From Candidatus Saccharimonadota bacterium (lineage in GTDB: Bacteria; Patescibacteriota; Saccharimonadia; Saccharimonadales; UBA4665), in NCBI GenBank assembly GCA_027365445.1, contig DAHXNJ010000049.1, forward strand, positions 1-39,966: a stretch of DNA of 39,966 nt, in the 5' to 3' direction. The first letter of the stretch is position 1. Each line of letters opens with the position of its first letter. A program made the translations under genes and the position numbers. A model generated the notes under the pieces. The model worked only from the letters and a program-made list of their open reading frames with translations. It was not told the origin of the DNA and ran no database searches. This document shows positions 11,245-30,545 of this stretch, piece after piece.

Positions 11245-11691
11245 ATGGATAACTTCGGTAAATCACAAAAAATAGTTATAGTTGAAGATAATGTTAGCTT
11301 AGCAGATATATATAAAACAAGATTAGAGTTATTGGGCTATAGTTGTTTTGTAGCCTATGATGGTGTGGCTGCGTTGAATATTATAGAACATGAATTGCCC
11401 AATTTGGTATTACTGGATCTAATGGTTCCTAAAATTGCTGGTGACCAAATATTAGAGACGATGAGAAAAAGTGTCTGGGGTAGGGATATACCGGTATTTA
11501 TCATATCTAACCTCAATGAGGCTGATGCGCCTACGGGTTTAAGGGAGATGGGTATTGAAGGTTATGCTGTTAAGGCCAATCTTTCTAACAATCAATTAGA
11601 TGAACTAGTCGATAATATTCTAAAACCAGCGGACCAGCAAGAGGACGTATTATTAGAAACTAATGAAAATGACCAAACTACAATTGCTTAA
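11245..11691 (+). CDS. Single-domain response regulator (CheY-like receiver only)
   Basis: VEDN acidic pocket, LLDLMVP phospho-acceptor Asp, IISNL (Ser/Thr position) and AVKA (Lys). No output domain and no kinase gene in the window. Confidence 0.85.
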
Positions 11692-13886
11692 GTAGCTTTT
11701 AGGATTAATAAAGATTTTCCTTCATAAGCTGACAAAGAAATAGAAAAGGTATTTAGGTCATCGACGTTACCAATAACTTGATCTTCAAACATGTCATAAA
11801 TTTCTGCACCAGCAATGAGGTATTCTGAGTTAACGCTTCCAGATATCTCATCGCCCGAAAAGTTAAGGACACTTAATTGGATCATATCGTTTTCTGGTAA
11901 AACATGGACCATGACTAGCATTGATTTATGAGAAACGTTAGGAATATCTACTTGACGAGCAATATCTATCGAATATTTTTTCCTAATAGCTATTATTTTT
12001 CTTAAATTTACCGCAAAAGATCCTTCATCTTTTAGCTGCTCATTTAATGATCCGTATAAAGCTGATGCTATAGGCATACCAGCAGTACTGGATTTTGCAT
12101 TATGATTGATGCCCATTAGGTCATAGCCGCCTCTATTGATCCATCTAGTATCACCGTCTTTTATAAGTTCTTTGATTTTCTCTTTGTCAATAGTTAGGGC
12201 TCCTACTAAGTCCCAACCGGAAAGAGCAAAAACACCTGGTTGTAAAGCATTAAACATGGCCATAAGTAGGTGTACATGCTTAATTTTTTCTAAATTGTTG
12301 CTATTTATGTTAGATAAATCTGTTATACCCAAGACGGCACATATAAGAGAAGCCGAGGTGCAGGCTATTCCATTTGTGGTAAATAATAGGTTATAGGGAG
12401 CAGCCTCGCCACATAAGCAATTAGCTATTTCTTGTCGAATGATCTTTCTAAGCTCAAGTCCACTGATTTGCGTATCACGAAAATCAAATAGATCATCTTT
12501 ATGTAGTGTCCAGAGGTGAACCAATTCATATGTTAAGTCGTCATGGTTTTGTAGGGCGTGAACTAAAGATGCTGGATCGACGCCTAGTTCAAGTCCAATC
12601 CGCATCATTAATCTTAAAAATTCGGTGTCGGATTTTATCAGTGCATGATGATAGGCTGGCCTAGTAATGAAGTCATAAGATAAATCGGCCCCAGCATGAG
12701 ACATGTTGACTATATCATCAATTGCTAAGTTAAGTTCCTGGAAAGTAAAACCACCAACTTTCCTGACCATGCCGGAAATTAGTAAGTTAGCCGCTTCACT
12801 TAATGGGTGTCCTTCAGACCATGCCGGCTGGTCTTCACTGGATTTTTCTACTCCTAGGAAGCCATTTGCATCAAGTCTCAGAGCACTTGAACCTAGATCG
12901 CCAAGTGAGTGCAGGGCATCACCGACAACAAGTTTCATGCCGGCAAAGCTTGGATCAAGCCAGTTTATTGATGGTTGACCATCCTTAAAGTAGTGAAGGT
13001 AGACCCACCGTCTAGCAATTCCATCCACACCTTTAATTTCTTTAGTTACGCTCCAGTTAGTTTCTTTAACGCCAGGTTCAAAGAAGATTACGCGTTGTAG
13101 CTTGCCGATTATATAACCGAGATGTTTTAATTCTTCTTCAGTCTCTATCGATAAATTAATTGAGTCTTTGCTTTTTGGAACTGCTGGTAATACTTTCCAG
13201 TGCTCAGGCAATATTTCTACCATATGATAAATTCCGGGATAATCCTTATAGCCCATTTCAGCCAATATAAAATCAAAGCCCTTACCTGTGTGGCCAGGAA
13301 TAATATCGTCAATTATTATGCCACCGTTTGCTTTCGCGGTATTGCTCATATTAATGTATTCGCTTTCGCTACCAAATATAGGATCGATTCGGTTACTTAT
13401 CCTATCAAAGTGGCCATCAATGCTTGGTGTTTGTTTCCAGCCACTTATACCGCCAGCTAATTTTAGTGGCCCAGTATGTAGAGCATCAATGCCAATAGTA
13501 TGAAAAGCAGCCCATAGCTCATCACTGCCTAATGTTTTTAATATTGATTCATTGTCTTTAGTTACTAATGACAGACCATAAGACGTATACCAAACTGAGG
13601 CCATTTTAACAGCCATTCTTGGTCTAGGCTTGGCAAATGGACGTTGCCACATGCTTCCTTTAGCTGAATATTTTGTAGCTATCTTATTGGCTTGATAGAG
13701 CATTGATTCTCGTTTTAACCATCCTACATATGATTTATTTTTAGCCGAAGCAGGACCAAGTCGGCGGATGTTAATTGGAGCAATAACAAAACCTCGTGCT
13801 TTAAGCCATAATTTTTTAGGACGCGCAGGGAAAAACTGCTCGGAAAAACTAAGCTTACCTGAACTATGAAAAAGTCTGCGTGCCAT
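11688..13886 (-). CDS. GH13 alpha-amylase-superfamily enzyme, trehalose synthase/transglucosidase-like (732 aa); exact activity not assignable
   Basis: GH13 regions: DDIIPGHTG (I), [11 protein letters not shown] (II, nucleophile Asp), FTFQELN (III, Glu), [11 protein letters not shown] (IV; NHDELT-like as in TreS). Confidence 0.75.
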
Positions 13887-14110: not shown

Positions 14111-14665
14111 TTGGAAGAATTATTTATACCAATAATAATAGGAACAACTAGAAAACAGCGTAAAAGTCATTATGCTGCACAGTTACTTAATGAGGTCGCT
14201 GGCGAGTACAGTTTTATAAAAACACAAATAATTGATCCGAACGACTTTATTTTCTTAGGTGACGGAAACGATCAAGAAGGCAAAGATTCAAGATATTCAG
14301 ACATAACAAAAAAAGCTGATGGATTTTTTATTGTTGTACCGGAGTATAACCATAGTTTCCCAGGTAGTTTAAAGAGGATGCTAGATAGTGAATTAGAAAA
14401 TTACAATCATAAAGCAGTGGCTTTTGCTGGTACATCATCGGGCAGCTGGGGAGGGGTTAGAGCAATAGAGTCATTGGTTAGTGCGGTAAGAGAAATGGGC
14501 CTTGTTGCTACTTATACTGATATGCACTTTCCTCGTATCCAGTCTTTATTTGACGATAATGGAACTTTAATTGATCAAAAGTATCGAGAAAATGCTAAAA
14601 AAGCATGGAATGAGTTAATTTGGATGACTAGAGTATTAAAGGTGGGTAGAGAGAAAAGTGAATAA
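14111..14665 (+). CDS. NAD(P)H-dependent FMN reductase family protein
   Basis: TTG start. IIIGTTRKQRKS near the N-terminus and VVPEYNHSFPGSLKRMLD are typical of the FMN_red family. Confidence 0.8.
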   Translation: MEELFIPIIIGTTRKQRKSHYAAQLLNEVAGEYSFIKTQIIDPNDFIFLGDGNDQEGKDSRYSDITKKADGFFIVVPEYNHSFPGSLKRMLDSELENYNHKAVAFAGTSSGSWGGVRAIESLVSAVREMGLVATYTDMHFPRIQSLFDDNGTLIDQKYRENAKKAWNELIWMTRVLKVGREKSE

Positions 14666-14675
14666 CTCGGTATCT

Positions 14676-16109
14676 TTATTGGCAGACTAATTTATCTAAT
14701 TCAATTCTTTTATTCTCACCATCGATTTGTAGGGTTAGATAATCCCAATTACAACCAATGAGTTGTTTAGCATTATGTTTACTTAGTTGAACTCTTTGCG
14801 CTGCTCTTGTTTTTTCAGGGGGTGTTATGGTAGCTTGTTTTATTTGTTTGGGTGAGTGTAGTGCAGTTTTATTGCCCATCTTATAACCATATCCATGGGT
14901 AATGGTAATATCTCCTTTAGCAGTAGCATCAAATCTAATTTGATCATAAAGCATATCTATTAATTTAGTTCTTGCATCTCCTAGTTTGAGAGTAGGATTA
15001 TCTTCCATCTTTTTTTGTAGGGCATATAATTTAACTGCCCAGTCGACTCGCCCCATAAGGTCTTCTAGCTTTTTATTGCCATTCATTACAGCTTCTACGT
15101 CATCGCAATATTTTAAGATTGATTGTCCAATCTGCTTGTAAGTATCTGGTATTGCTTGATTCATATAATCTTCTAATTCTTCTAATATGGTTGAAATATA
15201 AAATCGTTGTAAGTCAATATTTCCTTGCAGGGCTGATGAATAGTGAAAATTATTGTCTTTATCTATTGGAATCATATTCCACGAGTTATCATACTGTAGC
15301 CATTCGAAAATACGATAAGGAGCTTTGGCTAATTTATTAGCTAGGGGTGTTTGACTAGCTGCTAATATTAATGCAGCGCCTCCAAGTCTAGAGATTACCG
15401 ACCAGTCTTGTAGATTAATGTCATTACAGCGTATCTCAAACCTATTTCCATGACTGTGATCTATCCTTAATAGTGAATTTACATAATCGTATACATCATA
15501 GGAGTGTGGTTGACTGAGTTTTTGAGAAAACAGTGCCCCACTTTCATCAACCATCATTGAACCGTTAATAAAATTACGTGAATAAAGATAGTTTATCCAA
15601 AGTAACCCGAGGCCTTTTGTTCTATTGGAAAGTTTGTTTTTAAGTTCTGTTGAATTCTGGAAGGATAAGTTATCATGATGTCCTATAGTAGAGCCGGACT
15701 GGTCTATTACTCTTCTTTGGACTATAACCGTGATGTCTTCATGTTTTAACCTACTAATATCATATAGGTAATTACTTATTGCTCGTTCATAAAGCAAAGC
15801 ATTGGCCTTTATGTATTTGACGTCATCTTCTGGACTATCTGTCTCTGGTGTGGCTAGTTCGATCCCGCCTTGATCTACATAAGACCGACTACCATTCTCT
15901 AAGAAAAGATCGTAACTGCTACTGCTTTCTTCTTCTATTAATGGTCTACAAATTTTACTTAGATATTTGTTTATCTTAATTGCCTCTAATCTTGAGTTGT
16001 TGGATTTTGTAGAAATCGTTGGTCTAAGACTATTATTCTTATAACTAAAGAATCTAGTTTCTTCTTCTGTCCCCATGATTTGAGGAAAGTATTTATTATG
16101 CATCTCCAT
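14676..16109 (-). CDS. Pup-ligase/deamidase family protein (PafA/Dop homologue), diverged
   Basis: IMGTEEETRF (cf. IMGIETEFG), FLENGSRSYVDQGGIELATPE (cf. [22 protein letters not shown]), GSTIGHHDNLS (cf. GNSYGCHENYL), RFEIRCNDIN..RLGGAALIL (cf. RLHVIVGDSN..KVGTAALVL). Confidence 0.8.
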   Translation of the reverse strand: MEMHNKYFPQIMGTEEETRFFSYKNNSLRPTISTKSNNSRLEAIKINKYLSKICRPLIEEESSSSYDLFLENGSRSYVDQGGIELATPETDSPEDDVKYIKANALLYERAISNYLYDISRLKHEDITVIVQRRVIDQSGSTIGHHDNLSFQNSTELKNKLSNRTKGLGLLWINYLYSRNFINGSMMVDESGALFSQKLSQPHSYDVYDYVNSLLRIDHSHGNRFEIRCNDINLQDWSVISRLGGAALILAASQTPLANKLAKAPYRIFEWLQYDNSWNMIPIDKDNNFHYSSALQGNIDLQRFYISTILEELEDYMNQAIPDTYKQIGQSILKYCDDVEAVMNGNKKLEDLMGRVDWAVKLYALQKKMEDNPTLKLGDARTKLIDMLYDQIRFDATAKGDITITHGYGYKMGNKTALHSPKQIKQATITPPEKTRAAQRVQLSKHNAKQLIGCNWDYLTLQIDGENKRIELDKLVCQ

Positions 16110-16180: not shown

Positions 16181-17989
16181 ATGCTTATGTTTGCAGATAG
16201 ATTGGCTGTTCTTGTAAATCTTAACCAACCAGGTCACTTTCTTCATTGGTCTTTCTTTACCATATCGGTTGCTAACTTGGTAATCATAGCTGTCATGGTA
16301 GTTATTTTTGGATTAGCATTGCTATTGCCTTTCCCTAAGGGTCGTAAAGAAGAAAATGAAATACAGGACGATCGACCAATTCAAGAGGATGTAAACTTAA
16401 GGACATCGGCACTAGTAGCCTCTCCTGAAAGTAAGATGTGGACAGCTCGAGTAAGAAATTTTGGACTTCGAATTTTACCACCAGGTAAGCTACTTCCTGA
16501 TAGACAACCAGCTTATGTGTCATCTTGGATTTATGTCTTTGGTGTTGCCACACTAGCTGCTCTAGGAATGGTCGTTGCATCAGGTATGGCTCTTGCCATT
16601 GGTGGACCAGATTGGTGGCATACTAACCCAATTGGTCATTTCTTTAATAGTATGCATTTGTGGGGTGTAGAGCTGTTTATGGCTTTTATGGTCATCCATC
16701 TATGGGGTAAATTCTGGATGGCTGCATGGAGAGGCAAACGTTCACTAACATGGATTACTGGTGTCATTGCGTTTGTCACCTCAATCTTGGAATGCTTTAC
16801 GGGTTATTTATCTCAACAAAACTTTGACTCTCAATGGATAGCTACAAACGGCAAGGACGCAATCAATGCTACGGGTATGGGTAGTTTTTTTAATCTAATG
16901 AACTTTGGCCAAATGTTAATGTGGCATATTGTGCTTATTCCTATTGTTCTAGTGGCGATCATAGGGGCACATGTATTATTGGTTCGAGTTAAGGGAGTTG
17001 TTCATCCAATTCAAAGCAAGTCGCATAGTAGAGCTGAGCGTAAAGCAATAAGAGCAGCAGAAGCCAAAGCCTGGCGTGGCGCAACTCGTCGTTATGACAT
17101 CTTAAAAGAAGCAAGCATAGCTTCGCTAGTAGTGTTTTTGTTAGTTATTGGCTTAGCAACATTACTATCTTCACCTGATAAGCCACCGGTTACTGTTGCT
17201 AGTTGGGCTAAAGTAGCTCCAGCTAATTTTATGGCTACGGCTGCCAGTGAATTAGCGGGGACAAGCGAAACAGCCACTTATGGGCCACCGTATGACCATT
17301 TACCCAAGCAAGGGTCAGATGATGCTCAGAAAATTGGCATTAGTTGGCAACTGTTAGCTGGTGTAACACAACCTATAAATACTGGTCAAACTTTTGTGCT
17401 ATCACCTTTGTCCAAGATAGCTCCAACGAACAAAAAGCTATCTATGGCTCTAGACAAATATGAAGCTGCTAGCACAACCCAACGACAATCCTGGAACAGG
17501 GCATATGCTAAAGCGGTGACTAAGGTTCGTTTCGTTTCTGGTGTGCCCAAACTACCAAAGACTAAAGCTGGACCAATACCCACTCTTATAACAACCGAGT
17601 TAACGCTTGCGAGATCAGGAGCAATAGATGCTGATTTACTAGCGCAGCAGCCATTTTATGGCACCAATTACACGAAACCTTTATTATTTATTGAGGATGG
17701 TAATTACTTTTCGTCAATAGCCAAAAAGGACCATTTATATGGAACTCAATGGGGTGTAATGAACGAGACTGGGAGTTATCCAGGTCAACCATGGCTATGG
17801 CTTTATACCTTGTGGTATCAGGTACCTGGCTTTAGCACATCAATGAATGTAGACTTAATTGCCGTATATTTAACAGGACTGGCTACATTAATTTTATTAT
17901 TAATACCGTTTATACCAGGTATTAGGGATATACCCAAGATCGTACCAATTTATCGTTTAATATGGAAAAGGTGGTATAAAAGTAAATAG
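16181..17989 (+). CDS. Di-haem cytochrome b (QcrB/b6-like N-terminal domain) with atypical C-terminal half
   Basis: Helix B has His...His 14 residues apart (MHLWGVELFMAFMVIHLWGKFWMAAWRG). Helix D has His...His 15 apart (WHIVLIPIVLVAIIGAHVLL), the b6/QcrB spacing. LECFTGY resembles QcrB FEGYFGY. The real start may be ATG 16187. Confidence 0.8.
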   Translation: MLMFADRLAVLVNLNQPGHFLHWSFFTISVANLVIIAVMVVIFGLALLLPFPKGRKEENEIQDDRPIQEDVNLRTSALVASPESKMWTARVRNFGLRILPPGKLLPDRQPAYVSSWIYVFGVATLAALGMVVASGMALAIGGPDWWHTNPIGHFFNSMHLWGVELFMAFMVIHLWGKFWMAAWRGKRSLTWITGVIAFVTSILECFTGYLSQQNFDSQWIATNGKDAINATGMGSFFNLMNFGQMLMWHIVLIPIVLVAIIGAHVLLVRVKGVVHPIQSKSHSRAERKAIRAAEAKAWRGATRRYDILKEASIASLVVFLLVIGLATLLSSPDKPPVTVASWAKVAPANFMATAASELAGTSETATYGPPYDHLPKQGSDDAQKIGISWQLLAGVTQPINTGQTFVLSPLSKIAPTNKKLSMALDKYEAASTTQRQSWNRAYAKAVTKVRFVSGVPKLPKTKAGPIPTLITTELTLARSGAIDADLLAQQPFYGTNYTKPLLFIEDGNYFSSIAKKDHLYGTQWGVMNETGSYPGQPWLWLYTLWYQVPGFSTSMNVDLIAVYLTGLATLILLLIPFIPGIRDIPKIVPIYRLIWKRWYKSK

Positions 17990-18055: not shown

Positions 18056-18328
18056 ATGAGAGGGGCTACCATAATGGAGCAGGATAAAGGGGATCGCAGC
18101 GCTGACGGAGAAAGGTATCTTAATATGTTAGGCTTAGGTGAATATGCCAATAGGCAAATACCGGGTCGAACAGAATTAGGTAAGGACTTCTTGTCTATAT
18201 GTGGCGATCAGGCAGAGCAATCGCTTAAAGGTTTTGAGAGCATGAGTACTGAACATCCCAAATATAAACTAGCCAGGGATATGCTTAGAGGAAAATTAAT
18301 TACTTATTGGGATAAAGAAATAGAATAA
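18056..18328 (+). CDS. Hypothetical small protein (84-90 aa)
   Basis: SD GAGGGG sits 8 nt upstream of the in-frame ATG at 18074, so 18074 is the more likely start. Ends ...YWDKEIE. The downstream acidic-protein gene follows after 29 nt. Confidence 0.55.
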   Translation: MRGATIMEQDKGDRSADGERYLNMLGLGEYANRQIPGRTELGKDFLSICGDQAEQSLKGFESMSTEHPKYKLARDMLRGKLITYWDKEIE

Positions 18329-18357
18329 AAAATAAATAGGGTGGAAACTCGAAAATA

Positions 18358-20016
18358 ATGCCAATTAATGAATCTATCAATGTTATAACTAAGAGCGATG
18401 AAAGAGCTGCCTATTTAGCTACACAAGCAAGCAACGCCGAACAAACCAGTGATAGATCTCAAGACATAGAATCTCAAGAATTTAGCTTAAGCGACTCCGA
18501 ACAAGCTAGGCTTAGTCATAAGCATAAAAATGGTCAAGAGTTTAGTGCATATAGTGCTGAACAGGCTAAAAAAATGTGTCCATTTTTAGGAGGGTTATCA
18601 TTAGAAGAGGCGGATCTTTATTTAACTTTATATGAACTTGGTGGTGAGGTAATGGCAAAAGAAGAGAAGGCTAAGTCTGAACAACGAGGTAATTTAAATA
18701 AAGAAAATAGCAAAGAACATATCCTAAAAGTAAAAAAAGATAAGGAGGAGATTTCTAGTGTAAGCACACCTCATACTGAAATAGTAAGACCGATTATAGA
18801 GTCAAGCCTTTCAGAAGATGAATTGTTGCTAAGTAAATCAAAACAAGAGTTGTCGCCTAGGCCGTTAATAGAGTTGTCTTTGCCAGATCTACCTACTCCA
18901 ATAGAGCCACCTAATATTAGAGCCGTACCACAAGAAGAACTTCATCAGCAATCTGTTGAACCATTAGATACTGTATTGGCTAGTAGTGTGCCAGATGATG
19001 CAATTAGATTACAGATTGATCAGCAAATTAATGAAGCTTTAGTTGCACCAATCATAGAAACAAGTAGGGATGATAATGTAGTTAACGATAGATTAATTGT
19101 AGCCGAGGAATTTACAGCCTTGCCTAATTTGGATATATTATTCCAGAATACAATAGCTAAAGGAGACTATCTTGAGGATAAACCTTTAATTTATTCTATA
19201 GATGAACTAGAAAGTAGGTTAGTTAATAAAGAAGATATTATACTGCCGGATGTATCAATTACTGAAGAAGAAAATGACGATGCATTTTTTGCGATAACAG
19301 CAAATGATATGGGCGAAATGATAGCTAATGACGCACTTAGCGTAAGAAGGTCTGAAGAAGTTGTTGTTCTGGTTGACGAAGCCATACGGTTAAGTGAAAG
19401 TACTGAAACGGGCGCTGATCAAGCTGATCTTTGTAATCCGGTTGAATTGTTGTGTGATATTTTAGAAGATGCTAGATTAAAGCAGCTCAGTGAGATACTT
19501 GTCATGCCTGACTTATTAAATAGCGATTATGAGCCAGATAGTTTAGATATAAAAGAAGATAATCTATCAGAGGAAGAGATGGTTATCTTTCCTGCTTCGA
19601 TGATAAAGATAGTCGATCGACTTAGTGCTCCAATTGATGAGAGTGAGACAAATATGGCTCATATTGTTACGGAGATTATAATTAAAGCTCAATTGTTATC
19701 AGAACCAGTAACTGAGTCTATAGACTTAAGTGATGAAGAATTTAAGGATATTGAATGTGAGCTAGAAGTATTGGTAGCAAATTTATATGATGCTATGGGT
19801 ATCGACTTTGATCAATCGGAAATTGATCTATTTGTTAGTATACTGAAGGATCATAAATTTCACTCTAGTGTGTCTTTAGAGCAATCCGATATTGACTTAA
19901 CTAAAGCCGGAACTAGAGAAGCAAAAACAAGTTTTCAGCACTTTAGTAATACTTTTATTGATTGGCAACAACAAATACTTATGCTAATTGGTAAATTATC
20001 GTTGCTATATGCATAG
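18358..20016 (+). CDS. Hypothetical hyper-acidic protein (552 aa), likely largely disordered or extended
   Basis: Long clean ORF, very Asp/Glu/Ser/Leu-rich. Repeated (R/A)P(I/L)IE(S/L/T)S motif at residues 144, 168 and 230. Internal YELGGE at residues 92-97. Short hydrophobic C-terminus ILMLIGKLSLLYA. No recognisable domain. Confidence 0.65.
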   Translation: MPINESINVITKSDERAAYLATQASNAEQTSDRSQDIESQEFSLSDSEQARLSHKHKNGQEFSAYSAEQAKKMCPFLGGLSLEEADLYLTLYELGGEVMAKEEKAKSEQRGNLNKENSKEHILKVKKDKEEISSVSTPHTEIVRPIIESSLSEDELLLSKSKQELSPRPLIELSLPDLPTPIEPPNIRAVPQEELHQQSVEPLDTVLASSVPDDAIRLQIDQQINEALVAPIIETSRDDNVVNDRLIVAEEFTALPNLDILFQNTIAKGDYLEDKPLIYSIDELESRLVNKEDIILPDVSITEEENDDAFFAITANDMGEMIANDALSVRRSEEVVVLVDEAIRLSESTETGADQADLCNPVELLCDILEDARLKQLSEILVMPDLLNSDYEPDSLDIKEDNLSEEEMVIFPASMIKIVDRLSAPIDESETNMAHIVTEIIIKAQLLSEPVTESIDLSDEEFKDIECELEVLVANLYDAMGIDFDQSEIDLFVSILKDHKFHSSVSLEQSDIDLTKAGTREAKTSFQHFSNTFIDWQQQILMLIGKLSLLYA

Positions 20017-20079: not shown

Positions 20080-20502
20080 ATGTATAATACATTAAAATAT
20101 GGATATATTATGATTGAAGGAGCTAGGGACTTAGAGGCTTACACCATAACCAGAGATGAATATTATAGTAAAAATGTAGGTGATCAAGAGAGAAAAATAA
20201 TAAAGCCAAATATTACTGATATGGCTAATAAAATAATAAAAGCAGAGATGCTTAGTGATATTATTAGCGATAAGCCATGGATTGATCGTGCAAAATGTAA
20301 TATTCAAAAAGTAGAAGCAAACCTATTTTTCCCATCAACAACAGAAGGGGCTATAGTAGCTTGTGAGTATTGCCAGGATTGCCCGGTAAAAAAAGAATGT
20401 AAACAATATGCAATTGACAACAAAGAAGTATATGGAGTATGGGGTGGTGTTGATTTTGAGAGAGAAAAGAGAAGGGCAAAATATTTGCGAAACCATAAAT
20501 AA
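20080..20502 (+). CDS. WhiB-like (Wbl) Fe-S transcription factor with N-terminal extension
   Basis: Cys pattern C-x24-C-x2-C-x5-C (AKCN...CEYCQDCPVKKECKQYA), the G(V)WGG turn (YGVWGGV) and a basic tail EREKRRAKYLRNHK. The start is uncertain (20080 or in-frame ATG 20110). Confidence 0.85.
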   Translation: MYNTLKYGYIMIEGARDLEAYTITRDEYYSKNVGDQERKIIKPNITDMANKIIKAEMLSDIISDKPWIDRAKCNIQKVEANLFFPSTTEGAIVACEYCQDCPVKKECKQYAIDNKEVYGVWGGVDFEREKRRAKYLRNHK

Positions 20503-20645: not shown

Positions 20646-21764
20646 ATGAGAAAAAAAATATTAAAGCTACTATCCAAAAGAGTTAAGAATACCTTCTATT
20701 CGGTTGGTTCTATATTTTTAGTTGGATTAGTTATATCTTTTGCGTTACCTCCTATAAAAAGAATAAATATCGTGCCTACTTCTCAATCTAAAGTAATAAC
20801 TAAGCCAAAGGCCGTTATTAAACCAGAAAAAGTAAAGCCTAAGACAATATCTAAGCCAAGTCCTAAGCCCGTTGTTAGTTATAATAGTCCACCACCTGTA
20901 ACTAAAAGTCCTGCTCCTACAACTACTCAGAAGACTACGTCTGCTCCAACGACAGTTATTACTCCCGCACCGAGTAGCAGTGTAAATACACTAACTCCCT
21001 CAACTTCGTCATCCTCTACCAGTACTTCCACTTCCACTTCGACCTCTTCGTCATCCTCAACTAGTACTTCAACTTCGACCTCTTCATCAACCCCTACTTC
21101 TAGTCCTCCTCCCGCTACTACATCTACGAGTTATACTTCATCAAATTGGGCAGGGTATCTAGTTGCTTCGACAAAGTATACCGCTATAACTGCTGACTGG
21201 GTTGCTCCAACAGTTACCGGTAATGGTGCTTCTCTTTCAGCTGACGCATCTTGGATTGGGATTGGTGGTGTTACGACTTCAGATTTAATACAAATCGGGA
21301 CAGATAATACCGTATCATCTTCAGGAGTTGTAACTACAGGAGCTTTTTATGAGCTTTTACCTAATGCCGCTATTACGATCACCTCCCTTAACATATCACC
21401 TGGAGATACAATAAATGCATCAATCCAAGAAACTTCTACTAATGAATGGACGATTACGTTAATTGATGTAACTAAAAATCAAACTTTTACTAAAAATGTT
21501 TCCTATACTTCTTCGTTGTCTTCGGCTGAGTGGATCGAAGAAGATCCAAGCAATAGCTCTGGAAACCTATATCCGTTGGATAATTTTGGCACTGTATCTT
21601 TTAGTGACGTTACTACGACTGCAAATGGTACTAAAGAAGATTTAAGTGCTGTCAATGGAGATAGTATTACGATGTTAAATAGTTCAAGTCAACCTATTGC
21701 TACGCCATCAGCTATTGGAAGCAATGGTTCTAGTTTTAGTGTAACTAGGCAAAATCCTAGTTAA
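20646..21764 (+). CDS. Membrane-anchored glutamic peptidase, G1/eqolisin (Peptidase A4) family, with Pro/Ser/Thr linker
   Basis: N-terminal TM and a P/S/T-rich linker. SSNWAGY, SWIGIGG, LIQIGTD (catalytic Gln position) and AEWIEEDP (catalytic Glu position) match the scytalidoglutamic peptidase signature. Confidence 0.8.
   Translation: MRKKILKLLSKRVKNTFYSVGSIFLVGLVISFALPPIKRINIVPTSQSKVITKPKAVIKPEKVKPKTISKPSPKPVVSYNSPPPVTKSPAPTTTQKTTSAPTTVITPAPSSSVNTLTPSTSSSSTSTSTSTSTSSSSSTSTSTSTSSSTPTSSPPPATTSTSYTSSNWAGYLVASTKYTAITADWVAPTVTGNGASLSADASWIGIGGVTTSDLIQIGTDNTVSSSGVVTTGAFYELLPNAAITITSLNISPGDTINASIQETSTNEWTITLIDVTKNQTFTKNVSYTSSLSSAEWIEEDPSNSSGNLYPLDNFGTVSFSDVTTTANGTKEDLSAVNGDSITMLNSSSQPIATPSAIGSNGSSFSVTRQNPS
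21006..21083 (+). repeat. Imperfect tandem duplication (42 + 36 nt) encoding the poly-Ser/Thr linker
   Basis: Unit tcgtcatcctc.ac.agtacttc(cacttc)cacttcgacctct at 21006-21047 is repeated at 21048-21083 without the 6-nt insert. Confidence 0.8.
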
Positions 21765-21775
21765 GGGATATAAAA

Positions 21776-23236
21776 ATGAATAATGAAAATTTAAGAATAT
21801 ATGAGATCAATACCGCCAGTTGGTTAACTAAACTTAGTGTTAAATATGAGACGGCAATCAATTTAGGAAATATACCACTGAATGAGTGGAATAGTATTAT
21901 AGGTTTAGACTTTAATGCCATTTGGTTAATGGGCATTTGGCAACGCAGCGACCTGGCCATAGATATCAATCTTGCAGATGAAGCGTTTATGTCTGAAATG
22001 AGTAGTATATTAGATAACTTTAACCCTAGAAATGATTTAATAGGCTCTGCGTATAGCGTACGGGATTATGCTGTTAATGAAAAATTTGGAGATAAAGAAG
22101 ATGTTATTAAGATTAAAAAACTATTAAATGAAAGTGGTATCAAATTAATTCTAGATTATGTACCAAATCATGTGGCGCCGGATCACAAATGGGCAAAAGA
22201 TCATCCTGAGTATTTTATTCAAGGTAGTATAGAAGAGGCAAACAATGATCCAAAAGCATATTTAAATATTGATGGTAATGTTTATGCTAATGGTCGTGAC
22301 CCATATCTAGAACCTTGGAATGATGTTATTCAACTCAATGCATTTAATGAGGAATATCGAAAAGCTTCGGTTGAATTATTATTATCTATTGCACCTATGT
22401 GTGATGGAGTTAGGTGTGATATGGCTATGTTAATGTTAAGTTCGATATTCATAAGTACTTGGAAGAGTAAGTTGAATGAGGAAAGTCATGAAGAATACTG
22501 GCTTCAGGTTATTCCTCGGGTAAAGGAAGAATATCCAGACTTTATTTTTATTGCCGAAAGCTATTGGAACTGCGAACGAGAATTAATCAGTAATGGATTT
22601 GATATTTGTTATGATAAAGATTTTTACGATCATCTTCTAGCTAGGGATGTACATCTATTAGGTCTAGACATTAATAAAGATATTCATGACTTAAACCAAA
22701 CACTGAGATTTCTAGAAAATCATGATGAACCAAGGATTGCTACAGCTTTGCCTTATGAATTATTGAAAATAGCCTTGATTGTATTTGCTGCTACGCCAGG
22801 ATCAAAACTATTCTTTGATGGACAATTAGAAGGTATGAAAATTCGTACCCCGGTTCAGCTTAACAGAGATCCAGCAAGCCAGACTGATGAATATTTAGCT
22901 CACTATTATCGACGGTTTCTATTTTTAATCAATAACATAGAGCTAGTTTCGTTAGACTATCTTGTAGTTCGTTTTTATGATGATAGCTTAAATAATCGAC
23001 TACTTAGCTGGGCGTACACTAGTAGTAAGCAGGGCTATTTATTCTTAACAAATTGGAGTAGTGACATGATACAGTTAAATATGGCTACATTGGATATTGC
23101 TAACTTATTAGATAATAAAAAAATAGATTGCATTTTTACGACCAATGAAGATAATAGATATGTTGAAACTTTATCTTTAGAAACAGATATAAGCATTGAA
23201 CCTTATGAAGGATTGATATTGAGCATTAGCTCTTAA
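21776..23236 (+). CDS. GH13 alpha-amylase-family glycoside hydrolase (cytoplasmic, 486 aa)
   Basis: LDYVPNHVAPDH (region I), GVRCDMAM (II), FIAESYW (III), FLENHDEPR (IV). SD AAGGGA. Lies 11 nt after the G1 peptidase gene. Confidence 0.85.
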   Translation: MNNENLRIYEINTASWLTKLSVKYETAINLGNIPLNEWNSIIGLDFNAIWLMGIWQRSDLAIDINLADEAFMSEMSSILDNFNPRNDLIGSAYSVRDYAVNEKFGDKEDVIKIKKLLNESGIKLILDYVPNHVAPDHKWAKDHPEYFIQGSIEEANNDPKAYLNIDGNVYANGRDPYLEPWNDVIQLNAFNEEYRKASVELLLSIAPMCDGVRCDMAMLMLSSIFISTWKSKLNEESHEEYWLQVIPRVKEEYPDFIFIAESYWNCERELISNGFDICYDKDFYDHLLARDVHLLGLDINKDIHDLNQTLRFLENHDEPRIATALPYELLKIALIVFAATPGSKLFFDGQLEGMKIRTPVQLNRDPASQTDEYLAHYYRRFLFLINNIELVSLDYLVVRFYDDSLNNRLLSWAYTSSKQGYLFLTNWSSDMIQLNMATLDIANLLDNKKIDCIFTTNEDNRYVETLSLETDISIEPYEGLILSISS

Positions 23237-27600: not shown

Positions 27601-28494
27601 ATGAGCAAAGGTCGTCATTATACTTATAGTGTTGTAATACCATGTTATAACGAAGCCGACTACATTGGTAATACGCTTAAATCTTTAATTGAACAAAAAA
27701 CAGATGTTACTTATGAAATTATTATAGTAGACAATAATTGTACTGATGAGACTGTGGCTATTGCACGGAAGTATGGAGCAAAAGTCGTGAGAGAATCTAT
27801 CCCTGGAGTATGCCCGGCTAGACAGGCTGGTACTGAAGCTGCTAAATACGATATTATCATCTCTACAGATGCTGACACCGTATTTGCTCCTAATTGGTTA
27901 CAGCGGATAGATCAAACTTTTAGGGCACATCCCGAATATATTGCAGTTGGTGGTCCTTGTCGTTATTACGATGGTCCTTGGTGGGGAAAGATATATACTC
28001 ACTTTTTATTTGGTTGGAGCTATCTTTATTTTCTAATCTTTGGCCATCCTTATTATATTACGGCAACTAATATTGCTTTTAAAAAATCTGAATGGACTGG
28101 CTATGATTCAAATTTAATGCAAGGAGGAGATGAGCTAGCATTGCTTCATCAATTAAGAGCTCGGGGTACTGTAGGATTTAGCATTAGTAATGCTACCTAT
28201 ACATCTGGCCGGAGATTGCAAAAGGGGCTACTATATAATGTATTTGTAACGTTTTTGTTTTATTATTTTGGTGCTTATTATATTAATTCTATATTTAAAA
28301 AGAATATTATAGGCGCCGCTCCCGCTTTTAGAAAAACTTATCAACATCCAAGAGCTTATATGCCAAGAATAGCTTTAGTAGCGTTTATTATGTTAATTGT
28401 GTTCGTTCCTTTGTATATCGACAGTCATCGGGTCAGTGTTTTTATCTATCATAATACAAAATATATAAGACCATTCATTAAAAAACTATTCTAA
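27601..28494 (+). CDS. Family 2 glycosyltransferase with C-terminal TM segments
   Basis: VVIPCYNEADYIGNTLKSL, IIVDNNCTDET, STDADT (DxD-like), and a hydrophobic C-terminal third. Confidence 0.85.
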   Translation: MSKGRHYTYSVVIPCYNEADYIGNTLKSLIEQKTDVTYEIIIVDNNCTDETVAIARKYGAKVVRESIPGVCPARQAGTEAAKYDIIISTDADTVFAPNWLQRIDQTFRAHPEYIAVGGPCRYYDGPWWGKIYTHFLFGWSYLYFLIFGHPYYITATNIAFKKSEWTGYDSNLMQGGDELALLHQLRARGTVGFSISNATYTSGRRLQKGLLYNVFVTFLFYYFGAYYINSIFKKNIIGAAPAFRKTYQHPRAYMPRIALVAFIMLIVFVPLYIDSHRVSVFIYHNTKYIRPFIKKLF

Positions 28495-29177
28495 AATGTT
28501 CTGATTATTATTTCATAGTTTCTCTCAAGTTGCCTGTTGAGGTTATTGAAAGATACTAAGTTAGTCATTCTATATTGACTTATGTATCCATGACACGAAG
28601 TTTGCTTATCTTTAAGTTGATCTTTGTTTAAAAGATTTACTTCAATTGTCACATCTGTGTTTAAAAGTTTTGATGCACGATTATTTAATTTAGATAAATA
28701 TTTTTTGCTAACTTTTTTTGGCATGCTCATGTATGGAATGTCTGGATAAAAACTGACTTTATAACCTTCATTTAATAAGCTGACGCCAAGTTCTCGTAAT
28801 AAGACATGATCTGGATGTTTATAGAGGAATGAGCCGGCTAGAGGAAAGTACATGATTGTATTCATGTCGATGTAATTAAATAATCTTTGTTTTAGGGTAG
28901 ATAATGTAGGATTATTCTTTCGATATTGAATATCTAATAAATCTAAGTAGTTAGCTTCTTTACCTAATTCATTTAAGACTTTCTTATTTTCTTTTCTTCT
29001 CAAGTTAACCATTTGAATCGAGTTTGATTCACCGCACAGCTTATCCCAAAGAGTAGCATGGTTATTATCAGGAATTCTTGCAAAAACAGTTAGCACATTT
29101 GCACCTTGAACTGCTATCGTATACCAACAAGATATAACAGCGTCATCCATATGAGGGGATATTATTAGTTGATTCAC
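28491..29177 (-). CDS. PIG-L/LmbE-family N-acetylglucosaminyl deacetylase
   Basis: ISPHMDDAV (PHxDD zinc motif) and YKHPDHVLL (HPDH motif). GTG start is uncertain. The stop overlaps the GT2 stop by 3 nt (convergent). Confidence 0.78.
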   Translation of the reverse strand: MNQLIISPHMDDAVISCWYTIAVQGANVLTVFARIPDNNHATLWDKLCGESNSIQMVNLRRKENKKVLNELGKEANYLDLLDIQYRKNNPTLSTLKQRLFNYIDMNTIMYFPLAGSFLYKHPDHVLLRELGVSLLNEGYKVSFYPDIPYMSMPKKVSKKYLSKLNNRASKLLNTDVTIEVNLLNKDQLKDKQTSCHGYISQYRMTNLVSFNNLNRQLERNYEIIIRTF

Positions 29178-29417
29178 TTAAGACTAGTTATACCATAAAC
29201 TATAAACATACCTATAACTTGTAAAATGATCATAAATCAAAGATGCGTTTGCTGCATTAATGTATGTAGATAATTTATTGTTCTTTTGGAGCTGTTTATT
29301 GACGCATTAGTTAATCATTTAGCCAATGTCCGTATCAGAAATCTAGCATAATGTAATCTGTTCAATCTATGTATGGCTTGAATGTTGGCCTGGTCACACT
29401 TAAAATTGCTAGTTGCT

Positions 29418-30545
29418 TCATTGGCTTCTCATTTTTTCAACACTTTGAATATATAGCTTTTCGTAGTCATCAACTATAATTGGATAATTGAATTTCTTAA
29501 CATAAGTAGTCGCCCAGTTTACCCATAATTCTCTTAATGGATCATTATAAAGTAATAATTCTATTCTTCTAGCAAATTCGTTACTATCTTGAGGATTAAT
29601 GATAGATAAAGCGCCCAATCCATCGAGAACATCAACGTAACCTGAGTTGTTGCCGGCTACGGTAACAATACCGCTGGCCATTGCTTCAAGTAGTACTATT
29701 CCGAAACTTTCTCCATAAATAGCTGGTGAGCAAAATAAGTCAGCTTGAGATAGTAATTCCATTTTCTTTTGCTCTGTGACATAACCTAAAAATTCTACAT
29801 TATTAAGATTTAAGTCTTTGGCTAATTGTTCGAGTTTATTACGATGTGGGCCATCACCTGCAATAATAAGTTTGAGTTCTGGATGTTCTTTAGACACTAG
29901 CTTAAAAGCATTTAATAAAAACTTAACTCCTTTTCTTCTTTCTAGTCTTCCGATAAATAGTATGTTTTGTGGTGTCTTACCAGTTTTAGGGCTTTTTTGT
30001 TTATATATTTTTAAGTTTATACCGTTAGGAATGATGCTAATTGGTTTGTCTGTTAAATTAGCTGCATATTCAGCAGCAGAGTATGATACTGCGGTTAGTT
30101 GATGTAGATTGTTCATTACAGATTTTAAGTATGGCGTGAATACCTTGGCTACGGTTCTACTCATTTGAGTTTCTGGAACTTTTGCATGAAAAGTTGCTAT
30201 GTTTACGGCATTAGATCTTTGCAGTATCTGTCGGCTTAGAACTGGAACCCAGGGTTCATGGAAGTGTAGAACATCAAAGGCTTCATTTTTTAAAACATCT
30301 TCTAATTTATTGATGTCTACTGTTAACGCCACTTGAACCGTTGTGTGTGTAGGTGAACGAAGGTCTGTCGAGCTGCCAACAAAGATCACGTCCGGTAAGT
30401 CTACTACTTCATTTTCCCTAGGTAAAGGAGTGATTATCTTAACGATATGCCCACGTTTTTTTAATTCGGCTTGAAGAGATAAAACAATTTCTTGTACGCC
30501 ACCACCTATGGTTATGTTGTATGGACAAACAAGTCCTATCTTCAT
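29418..30545 (-). CDS. GT4 (GT-B) glycosyltransferase, PimA-like
   Basis: N-terminus MKIGLVCPYNITIGGGVQEIVLSLQAELKKRGHIVKIITP parallels mycobacterial PimA MRIGMVCPYSFDVPGGVQSHVLQLAEVLRDAGHEVSVLAP. C-terminal ESFGIVLLEAMASG. Confidence 0.82.
   Translation of the reverse strand: MKIGLVCPYNITIGGGVQEIVLSLQAELKKRGHIVKIITPLPRENEVVDLPDVIFVGSSTDLRSPTHTTVQVALTVDINKLEDVLKNEAFDVLHFHEPWVPVLSRQILQRSNAVNIATFHAKVPETQMSRTVAKVFTPYLKSVMNNLHQLTAVSYSAAEYAANLTDKPISIIPNGINLKIYKQKSPKTGKTPQNILFIGRLERRKGVKFLLNAFKLVSKEHPELKLIIAGDGPHRNKLEQLAKDLNLNNVEFLGYVTEQKKMELLSQADLFCSPAIYGESFGIVLLEAMASGIVTVAGNNSGYVDVLDGLGALSIINPQDSNEFARRIELLLYNDPLRELWVNWATTYVKKFNYPIIVDDYEKLYIQSVEKMRSQ

What the first reader, a model, noticed from the sequence alone, without database searches (positions are those of the whole stretch)
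14676..16109. Orphan, diverged Pup-ligase/deamidase (PafA/Dop) family gene with no Pup, ARC/Mpa or proteasome genes around it
The protein carries the PafA/Dop signature blocks (IMGTEEETRF; FLENGSRSYVDQGGIELATPE; GSTIGHHDNLS; RFEIRCNDIN...LGGAALIL) but is clearly diverged from actinobacterial enzymes. In Actinobacteria these enzymes sit in the arc-dop-pup-prcBA-pafA neighbourhood. Here the neighbours are an FMN reductase (convergent, 10-nt gap) and a divergently transcribed orphan cytochrome b. No small ORF ending in GGQ or GGE is adjacent. Three readings are possible. The modifier and targets may be non-canonical. The partners may be encoded elsewhere. Or the carboxylate-amine ligase fold may have been recruited for another amide-bond reaction. 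In a very AT-rich, apparently reduced genome, this is the most system-like unexplained gene in the window.
Basis: partly seen in the sequence, partly recalled or inferred. Interest (0 to 1): 0.72.

Follow-up and report, generated by a model that had tools for sequence, protein, structure and literature searches.

The report
Solitary, remodelled PafA/Dop-family enzyme in Saccharibacteria
This gene encodes an intact, very divergent relative of the enzymes that attach and remove the bacterial ubiquitin-like tag Pup, in a tiny parasitic bacterium (Saccharibacteria) where no such tagging system has been described, and its substrate-holding parts have been rebuilt, so its target is unknown.

Summary
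Window 14676-16109 (-) is an intact 477-aa ORF that matches Pfam Pup_ligase (102 bits, cutoff 25). It scores far below the PafA and Dop equivalog cutoffs. No Pup, ARC or proteasome gene lies in the 40-kb window.

The organism is a Saccharimonadales bacterium (Patescibacteria). The protein belongs to a large, Patescibacteria-restricted and very divergent branch, which I call type A (at least 170 clusters at 50% identity). The AlphaFold model has the full two-domain PafA/Dop fold (TM about 0.7). The ATP-Mg site and the catalytic Asp are kept. dN/dS against an 84%-identical orthologue is 0.17.

The Dop loop is absent. The alpha-loop/NTRDEPHAD segment that contacts Pup and the target protein is replaced. 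Three core positions differ from PafA/Dop (SQK, HDN, RxExRxxD), and the last matches the E-x-R-x-x-D pattern seen in E. coli YbdK.

New finding: Saccharibacteria also carry a less divergent, PafA-like branch, type B. In one contig a genuine Pup (…RGGQ) sits directly upstream of a type-B gene. One MAG encodes both types.

So this gene is either a re-purposed solitary ligase or the diverged second enzyme of a dispersed, unreported Pup system. It is a new variant of a known kind.

The parts
14676..16109 (-). Intact 477-aa gene for a type-A (Patescibacteria-specific) member of the PafA/Dop Pup-ligase family
   Evidence: ORF. Pfam PF03136 at 102 bits. AF2 model pLDDT 88.7, pTM 0.91. Foldseek top hits are Dop and PafA with TM about 0.7. 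dN/dS 0.17 against the orthologue in L024.
16059..16073 (-). GTEEE (residues 13-17), the GhExE ATP/Mg2+ motif. E15 and E17 correspond to Dop E8 and E10.
   Evidence: Coordinates checked. E15 and E17 are each Glu in 140-141 of 144 clade members. The roles of E8 and E10 are taken from PMC8599861.
15843..15896 (-). NGSRSYVDQGGIELATPE (residues 72-89). R75 corresponds to the alpha-phosphate Arg, Y77 and E84 to Mg ligands, and D79 to the catalytic Asp. The D-to-E spacing is Dop-like, with no PafA-type insertion.
   Evidence: Discriminating positions are from PMC7947786, Table 1.
15909..15950 (-). Short 14-residue linker (residues 54-67) where Dop carries its 40-65-residue Dop loop. The Dop loop is absent.
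   Evidence: Alignment A1 against a canonical Dop, P0018. The W47 column is a gap in 133 of 144 members. Secondary structure comes from the model.
15669..15683 (-). GHHDN (residues 143-147). H145 is a Mg ligand (Dop H155). The clade has HDN where PafA and Dop have HEN.
15519..15527 (-). SQK (residues 195-197). Lys replaces the canonical SQR arginine (Dop R205).
   Evidence: K in 144 of 144 clade members. Type B also has [SA]QK.
15447..15479 (-). NSLLRIDHSHG (residues 211-221), a shortened segment. It replaces the alpha-loop end and the canonical RPIINTRDEPHAD motif, which holds PafA R201 and R207.
   Evidence: Alignment blocks. The roles of R201, R207 and R218 and of the alpha-loop come from PMC8599861 and PMC10465538. 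The model is of low confidence here (block pLDDT 66).
15414..15443 (-). RFEIRCNDIN (residues 223-232). E225 replaces the Mg-ligand His (Dop H241) and R227 is a new invariant Arg on the same strand. The E-x-R-x-x-D pattern also occurs in E. coli YbdK (GTVEVRVMD).
14745..14822 (-). C-terminal-domain nucleotide contacts: PPEKTRAAQR (residues 430-439, nt 14793-14822; R435 corresponds to PafA R418, the adenine contact) and W455 (nt 14745-14747; PafA W440 / Dop W453).
   Evidence: Invariant in alignment A2. W is present in 139 of 144 members. Roles are from PMC12053664 and PMC8599861.
16110..16180 (.). 71-nt AT-rich divergent intergenic region shared with the cytochrome-b-like gene. It is the presumed promoter region (inferred only).
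   Evidence: Sequence. The consensus scan gave no - strand promoter match here.

Best explanation
The gene encodes a functional, cytoplasmic, ATP- and Mg2+-dependent enzyme with the PafA/Dop two-domain fold. It belongs to a Patescibacteria-specific, deeply divergent branch (type A) that is neither PafA nor Dop.

Inferred mechanism: Mg-ATP binds in the beta-sheet cradle. The contacts are E15 and E17, R75, Y77, E84, H145 and E225, plus R435 and W455 from the C-terminal domain. A substrate carboxylate is phosphorylated to an acyl-phosphate. An amine then attacks it to form an amide or isopeptide bond, with D79 as general base. The phosphate-assisted reverse reaction, as in Dop, is not excluded.

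The parts that hold the C-terminus of Pup and the target protein in PafA/Dop are replaced or shortened. These are the alpha-loop, the NTRDEPHAD segment and the R201/R207/R218 equivalents. Core positions show SQK, HDN and a YbdK-like E-x-R-x-x-D. I therefore conclude that the enzyme has been re-purposed for a substrate that is not bound as canonical Pup is, most likely a peptide or protein carboxylate.

It works as a solitary gene, without a proteasome and without an operon partner.

Shown: family membership, fold, retention of the catalytic and nucleotide residues, purifying selection, absence of conserved neighbours, and clade distribution. Inferred: activity, direction (ligase) and substrate class.
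For: Family and fold.

All six Dop Mg-ligand positions are kept or conservatively replaced (H241 to E), and the catalytic Asp, the phosphate Arg and the C-terminal-domain adenine and ribose contacts are kept.

dN/dS is 0.17.

The clade is large and restricted. 170 representatives reach E <= 1e-30. All named members and all 12 species-genome loci come from Saccharibacteria, Patescibacteria or unclassified MAGs.

The substrate region is remodelled and the Dop loop is absent. The E-x-R-x-x-D motif is shared with YbdK.

No neighbour is conserved across 16 distinct type-A loci. No Pup-like ORF was found in 384 kb of window plus locus DNA, or in the loci fetched later.

Type B, not type A, keeps the canonical Pup-contact motifs, and type B is the gene next to Pup.
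Against: Nothing was measured, so activity, direction and substrate are all inference.

The whole genome could not be searched, so a Pup gene or a type-B gene may lie elsewhere.

One MAG carries both types, and a related organism has Pup. Both facts fit a role in a Pup pathway.

In large sister subclades of type A the Asp two residues after the Tyr is replaced by Gly. The family chemistry may therefore differ from PafA/Dop more than I assume.

The model is of low confidence in the alpha-loop region.
Confidence: 0.45

Rival explanations
1. Type A is the second enzyme of a dispersed, proteasome-less Saccharibacterial Pup pathway. Pup and a PafA-like type-B ligase are encoded elsewhere in the same genome. 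Type A acts on Pup or on Pup conjugates, for example as the deamidase/depupylase counterpart, a Dop analogue without a Dop loop.
For: A genuine Pup (Pfam 44 bits, ending RGGQ) lies 8 nt upstream of type-B gene P0406 in L028. L028 is Saccharibacteria-like: its MgsA is 72% identical to that of L008, which carries a type-A gene. A Pup ending in Gln needs deamidation (established pupylation biochemistry). MAG GCA_046350695.1 has both type A (P0089) and type B (P0415). For the query, the best NCBIfam, PDB-sequence and Foldseek hits are Dop. The D-x4-E spacing is Dop-like.
Against: The Dop loop, present in all Dop orthologues (PMC8599861), is absent. The T217/alpha-loop and R221-equivalent Pup contacts are not conserved. 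No Pup lies within +-10 kb of any type-A locus, or of the type-B loci other than L028. BLAST and NCBIfam place type A equidistant from PafA and Dop. Type A may be more diverse than type B, but the two searches are not comparable. MAGs can be chimeric.
Confidence: 0.3
2. It is a small-molecule carboxylate-amine ligase, similar to GCL2/YbdK or glutamine synthetase. It would make, for example, a gamma-glutamyl amide or a thiol cofactor precursor, not a protein modification.
For: E-x-R-x-x-D and ELAT motifs are shared with E. coli YbdK. After PafA/Dop, the next structural neighbours are YbdK and GCL enzymes. The neighbours are redox-related: an FMN reductase, a cytochrome b and WhiB.
Against: The PafA/Dop-specific C-terminal domain and the full two-domain architecture are kept: TM about 0.7 to PafA/Dop against about 0.4 to YbdK. 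hhalign to YbdK is not significant (E = 0.31). No biosynthetic neighbour is conserved.
Confidence: 0.12
3. It is host-directed. The enzyme acts on Pup or pupylated proteins of the actinobacterial host on which Saccharibacteria live.
For: Cultivated Saccharibacteria grow as epibionts on Actinobacteria (PMC10633639). Hecht et al. 2020 found Dop and PafA largely conserved across Actinobacteria and Nitrospirae (PMC7947786).
Against: There is no signal peptide: strand beta-1 starts at residue 12. There is no link to a secretion system at type-A loci. The Pup-contact elements are not conserved.
Confidence: 0.05
4. It is a decaying relic of an old transfer from Actinobacteria and no longer has a function.
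For: In two loci (L017, L023) the homologue is split into two or three ORFs. The protein evolves fast: 41-44% identity where BipA is about 79% identical.
Against: The ORF is intact. dN/dS is 0.17. 45 columns are invariant across 17 sequences, including the catalytic set. GC content equals that of the genome.
Confidence: 0.03

Closest known systems
PafA (Pup--protein ligase, TIGR03686; PDB 4B0T, 4BJR)
   Same: The fold is the same two-domain fold (Foldseek E about 1e-17, TM about 0.7). It shares the GhExE motif, the Mg ligands, the catalytic Asp, the C-terminal-domain Arg and Trp nucleotide contacts, the absence of a Dop loop, F69 (PafA F54) and A86 (PafA A72).
   Different: It scores 65 bits against a cutoff of 551. 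It lacks the one-residue insertion after the catalytic Asp. The helical alpha-loop and the R201/R207/R218 substrate contacts are not alignable. It has SQK, HDN and RxExR in place of SQR, HEN and RRLHVI. No pup, arc or prcBA genes are nearby.
Dop (depupylase/deamidase, TIGR03688; PDB 4B0R, 7OXV, 9CKU)
   Same: Dop gives the best sequence and structure hits. The D-x4-E spacing is shared, as are V78 (Dop V93) and P88 (Dop P103).
   Different: It scores 84 bits against a cutoff of 492. The Dop loop, including W47, is absent. H95, T217 and NTRDEPHAD are not conserved. H241 is replaced by Glu.
Saccharibacterial 'type B' PafA-like clade found here (P0158, P0320, P0382/P0415, P0406)
   Same: Same phylum, and same MAG in one case. 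Type B also has no Dop loop, has [SA]QK, is equidistant from PafA and Dop, and is mostly encoded without proteasome genes.
   Different: It is only 18-24% identical to type A. It keeps HPEY/HIEY, HENY, N[TL]R[DN]E.H and R[LV]H..GD.N, and it has the PafA-type insertion. It scores 165-238 bits on the PafA and Dop models, against 41-85 bits for type A. In one locus it sits directly downstream of a Pup gene.
Single-copy PafA/Dop homologues of Planctomycetes and other non-actinobacterial phyla (UBact-associated systems)
   Same: They are non-actinobacterial, lie outside the PafA/Dop duplication, and are about equally distant from both (29-31% according to PMC7947786).
   Different: No reference sequences were available for comparison here. 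The Planctomycetes proteins partly align with the Dop loop, and type A does not. No UBact or proteasome genes lie nearby. Type A is more divergent, at about 20-24% identity to canonical enzymes.
YbdK / GCL2 carboxylate-amine ligases
   Same: The catalytic cradle belongs to the same superfamily. The GxExE, ELAT and E-x-R-x-x-D motifs are shared.
   Different: YbdK has no PafA/Dop C-terminal domain. TM is only about 0.4. The profile comparison is not significant.

Membership tests
Pup-ligase/deamidase family (Pfam PF03136) | Profile score above the gathering threshold | tested here: met
   102.1 bits against 25, E = 4.7e-29.
Pup-ligase/deamidase family (Pfam PF03136) | Two-domain fold: a GS-like beta-sheet cradle plus the family-specific C-terminal domain | tested here: met
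   AF2 pLDDT 88.7 and pTM 0.91. The top 11 Foldseek PDB hits are all Dop or PafA, E from 1e-18 to 1e-11, TM 0.6-0.72.
Pup-ligase/deamidase family (Pfam PF03136) | GhExE motif, Mg2+ ligands, catalytic Asp, nucleotide-contacting Arg and Trp of the C-terminal domain | tested here: met
   E15, E17, Y77, E84, H145, E225 (in place of His), D79, R435 and W455.
PafA (TIGR03686 equivalog) | Equivalog score of at least 551 bits | tested here: not met
   65.2 bits.
PafA (TIGR03686 equivalog) | PafA-specific conserved positions (insertion after the catalytic Asp, G66/S67, A74, helical alpha-loop residues, D439) | tested here: not met
   Mosaic. There is no insertion, P88 is Dop-like, and the alpha-loop is unalignable and shorter.
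PafA (TIGR03686 equivalog) | Ligates the C-terminal Glu of Pup to substrate lysines | not testable with these tools
   This needs biochemistry. No Pup gene was found in the window.
Dop (TIGR03688 equivalog) | Equivalog score of at least 492 bits | tested here: not met
   84.1 bits.
Dop (TIGR03688 equivalog) | Dop loop of 40-65 residues before strand beta-2, with a conserved Trp | tested here: not met
   There is a 14-residue linker instead. The W47 column is a gap in 133 of 144 clade members.
Canonical Pup-proteasome system locus | Gene neighbourhood arc-dop-pup-prcBA-pafA | tested here: not met
   Absent from the window and from all 16 type-A loci. Ten actinobacterial loci fetched in the metagenome scan serve as a control: each has a canonical Dop directly upstream of the pup match, and seven also show a PafA about 1.5 kb downstream.
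Canonical Pup-proteasome system locus | Pup, ARC/Mpa or a 20S proteasome anywhere in the same genome | not testable with these tools
   Only 40 kb of the 55.9-kb contig is available. Whole genomes could not be fetched.
UBact-associated ligase clade | Clusters phylogenetically with UBact-linked ligases and lies next to UBact and proteasome genes | not tested
   No reference sequences were obtained. No small partner gene is conserved at type-A loci.

The most novel reading that the evidence does not exclude
Saccharibacteria are obligate epibionts of Actinobacteria. They may possess an unreported, minimal, proteasome-free Pup-type modification system encoded by dispersed genes. The parts would be a real Pup (…GGQ), a PafA-like type-B enzyme that branches outside the PafA/Dop split, and the radically remodelled type-A paralogue found in this window. 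Type A would carry a new activity: a Dop-loop-independent deamidase/depupylase, a ligase for a second unknown modifier, or an enzyme acting on host Pup conjugates. Its YbdK-like E-x-R active site would make it a living intermediate for how pupylation enzymes arose from carboxylate-amine ligases.
Probability: 0.2. Interest if true: 0.8.

Novelty: new variant of a known kind. Interest (0 to 1): 0.6.

Why it matters
In the literature read here, pupylation is a system of Actinobacteria and Nitrospirae with sporadic cases in a few other phyla. The phylogenetic survey I read lists no candidate-phyla-radiation member (PMC7947786). Full-text searches found no paper linking Saccharibacteria or Patescibacteria with pupylation or PafA.

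Here a large Patescibacterial clade keeps the catalytic machinery but rebuilds the substrate site. Its genomes are about 1 Mb in size, where retained genes usually matter. A second PafA-like clade and a real Pup occur in the same phylum.

If type A acts on Pup, the known range and minimal composition of pupylation expand, with no proteasome and no Dop loop. If it does not, it is a natural example of the PafA/Dop scaffold being re-used for another amide-bond reaction. Its YbdK-like active-site motif also bears on the origin of the family. Either outcome can be tested with recombinant protein and complete genomes.

Tried and rejected
1. Small ORFs ending GG[QE] or G[GST][QE] near 16 type-A loci. 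Only chance ORFs turned up, most of them inside other genes.

The only hit was L028; the best other E-value was about 8-10.

3. They have weak homologues only in L013, and the C-terminal Glu is not conserved.

4. The FMN reductase neighbour, which ends in …KSE, as a possible substrate. The C-terminal Glu is not conserved in L005.

5. Conserved-neighbour clustering. The cytochrome b is adjacent only in the three closest loci, and in a different arrangement in L013. A NUDIX gene occurs in 5 of 16 loci and response regulators lie at variable distances. None spans the subclades.

6. PADLOC defence models: no hit.

7. The metagenome scan with the Patescibacterial Pup returned only canonical actinobacterial dop-pup(-pafA) loci.

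8. hhalign of the clade against E. coli YbdK was not significant (E = 0.31). Only motif-level resemblance is claimed.

9. The promoter and terminator scan was uninformative.

10. Literature searches for Saccharibacteria, Patescibacteria or TM7 combined with pupylation, PafA or proteasome found nothing relevant.

11. Whole-genome presence or absence of Pup, type B and the proteasome could not be tested.
Full report
**Observation**

It matches Pfam PF03136 Pup_ligase at 102 bits against a gathering cutoff of 25. On the NCBIfam equivalog models it reaches only 84 bits for Dop (cutoff 492) and 65 bits for PafA (cutoff 551). Sequence search of the PDB finds only Dop and PafA chains, with E-values from 3e-7 to 3e-5.

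The neighbours are as described. An NADPH-dependent FMN reductase at 14111-14665 is convergent with a 10-nt gap. A cytochrome-b-like protein of 602 aa at 16181-17989 is divergent with a 71-nt gap. Pfam scans of 31 of the 33 window ORFs of at least 100 aa (the other two lie inside longer ORFs on the opposite strand) show no Pup, proteasome or ARC domain. tblastn finds no second family member in the window.

**Organism**

The window's BipA/TypA is 77-80% identical to many proteins. Where those carry an organism name, it is mostly Candidatus Saccharimonadales. The closest named homologues of the gene itself are also from Saccharimonadales or Patescibacteria. All 12 loci found in one-genome-per-species GTDB contigs come from MAGs: nine are named Saccharibacteria, Saccharimonadales or Patescibacteria, and three are titled only 'bacterium'. 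The gene's GC content (0.347) equals that of the window (0.356), so there is no compositional sign of recent acquisition.

**The clade (type A)**

A profile of 17 homologues was searched against 1.84 billion cluster representatives. It found 170 proteins at E <= 1e-30, 1380 at E <= 1e-10 and 2812 at E <= 1e-3. The best 150 all have E <= 6e-40. In a rough neighbour-joining tree of the 144 clade sequences of at least 430 aa, the four canonical Dop and PafA references fall outside them. Every member that carries a source name is from Patescibacteria or Saccharibacteria and is annotated 'PafA2 family'.

The protein evolves fast. It is 41-44% identical between genomes whose BipA is about 79% identical; for example, P0008 and P0190 lie on the same 1.02-Mb contig. 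It is nonetheless under purifying selection. Against the 84%-identical orthologue in L024, dN/dS is 0.17 (Nei-Gojobori). Forty-five columns are invariant across the 17 sequences.

**Fold and active site**

An AlphaFold2 model built on the clade alignment is confident (pLDDT 88.7, pTM 0.91). Its top 11 PDB matches are Dop and PafA structures (E from 1e-18 to 1e-11, TM 0.6-0.72). YbdK and gamma-glutamylcysteine ligases follow at TM about 0.3-0.4.

I reconstructed the A. cellulolyticus Dop, M. smegmatis Dop and C. glutamicum PafA sequences from the HMMER alignment printouts. I then mapped the published functional residues onto the clade. The Dop Mg ligands are E8, E10, Y92, E99, H155 and H241 (PMC8599861). 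They correspond to E15, E17, Y77, E84, H145 and E225. The last is an invariant Glu in place of His.

Other mappings are as follows:
- The alpha-phosphate Arg R90 corresponds to R75.
- The catalytic Asp D94 corresponds to D79.
- R239 corresponds to R223, and D246/N248 to D230/N232.
- The C-terminal-domain contacts PafA R418 (adenine) and W440 (ribose) (PMC12053664) correspond to R435 and W455.

The nucleotide-metal site and the catalytic base are therefore retained. I infer a working ATP-dependent enzyme.

**What is different**

1. The Dop loop is said to be present in all Dop orthologues. It is absent here: a 14-residue linker takes its place, and the W47 column is a gap in 133 of 144 members.

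2. The positions that discriminate Dop from PafA (Hecht et al. 2020, PMC7947786, Table 1) form a mosaic. F69 and A86 are PafA-like. V78, P88 and the lack of the PafA insertion are Dop-like.

3. The alpha-loop and the conserved RPIINTRDEPHAD segment are replaced by a segment about 12 residues shorter (NSLLRIDHSHG). In the canonical enzymes this region includes:
   - PafA R201, which salt-bridges the Pup C-terminus;
   - PafA R207 and R218, which recognise target proteins.
   The functions are taken, and the alignments.

4. Core motifs change from SQR to SQK (144 of 144 members), from HEN to HDN, and from RRLHVIxGDxN to RxExRCNDxN. The last gives an E-x-R-x-x-D pattern. E. coli YbdK, a GCL2-type carboxylate-amine ligase, also shows it (GTVEVRVMD), together with an ELAT motif. 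A profile comparison with YbdK is not significant, so this is a motif-level resemblance only.

5. In large sister subclades of type A (motif 'Y-x-GG…TN[IL]ERATPE'), the Asp two residues after the Tyr is often replaced by Gly. The query's own subclade keeps it.

**Genomic context**

I compared 16 distinct type-A loci, each with up to +-10 kb of flank. One locus (P0009, 42% identical) is syntenic with the window. Its gene order is Peptidase_A4, WhiB, cytochrome b, ligase, FMN_red, TreS, response regulator, MetK. L013 keeps the cytochrome-b adjacency but in a different arrangement. The remaining loci are unrelated.

No neighbour spans the subclades. A NUDIX gene is adjacent or nearby in 5 of 16 loci. 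No locus has a proteasome, ARC or Pup gene.

Regular-expression, phmmer and HMM searches for Pup-like ORFs in six-frame translations of the window and all loci gave nothing for type-A loci. The terminal Glu of the small ORF is not conserved.

**A second clade and a real Pup in the same phylum**

I then searched with P0158, the clade member closest to canonical enzymes. This revealed a second Patescibacterial branch, type B. Its members include P0158, P0295, P0296, P0314, P0320, P0330, P0382/P0415, P0391, P0406 and P0412.

Type B keeps H[PI]EYATPE with the PafA-type insertion, HENY, N[TL]R[DN]E.H and R[LV]H..GD.N, but it has [SA]QK and no Dop loop. It is 25-33% identical to canonical enzymes and 18-24% identical to type A. 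It scores 165-238 bits on both the PafA and Dop models, against 41-85 bits for type A. Both types are thus about equidistant from PafA and Dop.

In contig L028, type-B gene P0406 is preceded at 8 nt by a 67-aa gene. NCBI names the pair 'Pup-like protein' and 'Pup amidohydrolase' [Patescibacteria group bacterium]. The small gene matches Pfam Pup (44 bits, cutoff 27) and ends …STFIQRGGQ. L028 is Saccharibacteria-like. Its MgsA is 72% identical to that of L008, which carries a type-A gene, and its MFS transporter is 61% identical to one in L015.

The other three distinct type-B contexts (L026, L027, L029/L032-37) have no Pup nearby.

One NCBI MAG, GCA_046350695.1 (Ca. Saccharimonadales), carries both types. 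Type A (P0089) is on contig JAXLZX010000009.1 and type B (P0415) is on JAXLZX010000001.1.

A metagenome scan with the Patescibacterial Pup returned only canonical actinobacterial loci. All ten have a canonical Dop directly upstream of the pup match, and seven also have a PafA about 1.5 kb downstream. These serve as a control for what the canonical neighbourhood looks like.

**Interpretation**

Shown:
- The gene is real, intact and under purifying selection.
- It belongs to the Pup-ligase family by profile and by fold.
- It keeps the nucleotide, metal and catalytic residues.
- It is neither PafA nor Dop by any defining test.
- It belongs to a large Patescibacteria-restricted clade encoded as solitary genes.

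Inferred: it catalyses ATP-dependent acyl-phosphate chemistry that makes, or in reverse cleaves, an amide or isopeptide bond. Its substrate is bound differently from canonical Pup, because the Pup- and target-contacting elements have been rebuilt.

I favour a re-purposed, solitary ligase (confidence 0.45). The main rival (0.30) is that type A is the second enzyme of a dispersed, proteasome-less Saccharibacterial Pup pathway, for instance the deamidase/depupylase for a Pup ending in Gln. The A+B co-occurrence and the L028 Pup make this plausible. Small-molecule ligation (0.12), action on the host pupylome (0.05) and a decaying relic (0.03) are less likely.

**Caveats**

- Whole genomes could not be searched.
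- MAGs can be chimeric.
- The tree is a rough neighbour-joining tree without UBact or Planctomycetes references.
- The model is of low confidence in the alpha-loop region.

**Comparison with the literature and novelty**

The phylogenetic survey of PafA and Dop that I read lists Actinobacteria, Nitrospirae, NC10, Armatimonadetes, Verrucomicrobia, Nitrospinae, Firmicutes, Proteobacteria and Planctomycetes. It lists no candidate-phyla-radiation lineage. Full-text searches combining Saccharibacteria, Patescibacteria or TM7 with pupylation, PafA or proteasome found nothing relevant. Automated annotation already labels these proteins 'PafA2 family'.

I rate the finding as a new variant of a known kind, of moderate to high interest (0.6).

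Noticed in passing
L028:7789-9350 (Logan SRR12762297; NCBI MDQ5972023.1 and MDQ5972024.1): A Saccharibacteria-like contig has a two-gene module. A genuine Pup (67 aa, Pfam 44 bits, ending RGGQ) lies 8 nt upstream of a PafA-like type-B enzyme. No proteasome or ARC gene lies within +-8 kb. I found no paper describing pupylation in Patescibacteria.
   Followed up: partly
L031 and L032 (GCA_046350695.1, contigs JAXLZX010000009.1 and JAXLZX010000001.1): One Saccharimonadales MAG encodes both the type-A and the type-B paralogue. This pairing is reminiscent of Dop plus PafA, but both paralogues branch outside that split.
   Followed up: partly
L029, L032-L037 (type-B gene P0382/P0415): The type-B gene is always followed by a convergent 398-aa gene with no Pfam or NCBIfam match. 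Upstream there is either a 79-aa WhiB (followed in L029 by a tRNA-like sequence) or a type IV secretion/conjugation block (TraG, TrbL, PrgI, T4SS pilin, M23 peptidase). The variable upstream side suggests a mobile-element boundary.
   Followed up: no
L017:5002-6489 and L023:10001-11497: In two Saccharibacteria MAG loci the type-A homologue is split into two or three ORFs. This could be a frameshift, a pseudogene or an assembly error.
   Followed up: no
window 16181-17989 (+): A solitary 602-aa cytochrome-b-like protein. It has an N-terminal Cytochrom_B_N_2 domain and a C-terminal extension of about 300 aa with no Pfam match. It lies next to the type-A gene in the window, L005, L013 and L024, but in a different arrangement in L013. 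No other bc1 or b6f subunits are nearby.
   Followed up: partly
window 18056-20016 (+): A 90-aa ORF followed by a 552-aa acidic ORF (E+D about 21%) with no family match. The pair recurs weakly (28-30% identity) only in L013 and is absent from the syntenic locus L005.
   Followed up: partly
window 20080-20502 (+) and 20646-21764 (+): A WhiB-family regulator (the family is typical of Actinobacteria) and a Peptidase_A4 acid protease sit in this Saccharimonadales window. Both are conserved in the syntenic loci.
   Followed up: no
window 11688-13886 (-) and 21776-23236 (+): A maltose alpha-D-glucosyltransferase (TreS, TIGR02455, 920 bits against a cutoff of 719) and an alpha-amylase-family protein indicate trehalose/maltose metabolism in a small genome.
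   Followed up: no
window 28491-30545 (-): An adjacent PIG-L-family deacetylase and a GT4 glycosyltransferase. From memory, this pairing resembles the first two steps of mycothiol or bacillithiol synthesis. It lies 12 kb from the ligase gene and no link was shown.
   Followed up: no
window 32537-33715 (-): A cyclopropane-fatty-acyl/mycolic acid cyclopropane synthase family methyltransferase (CMAS, 310 bits).
   Followed up: no
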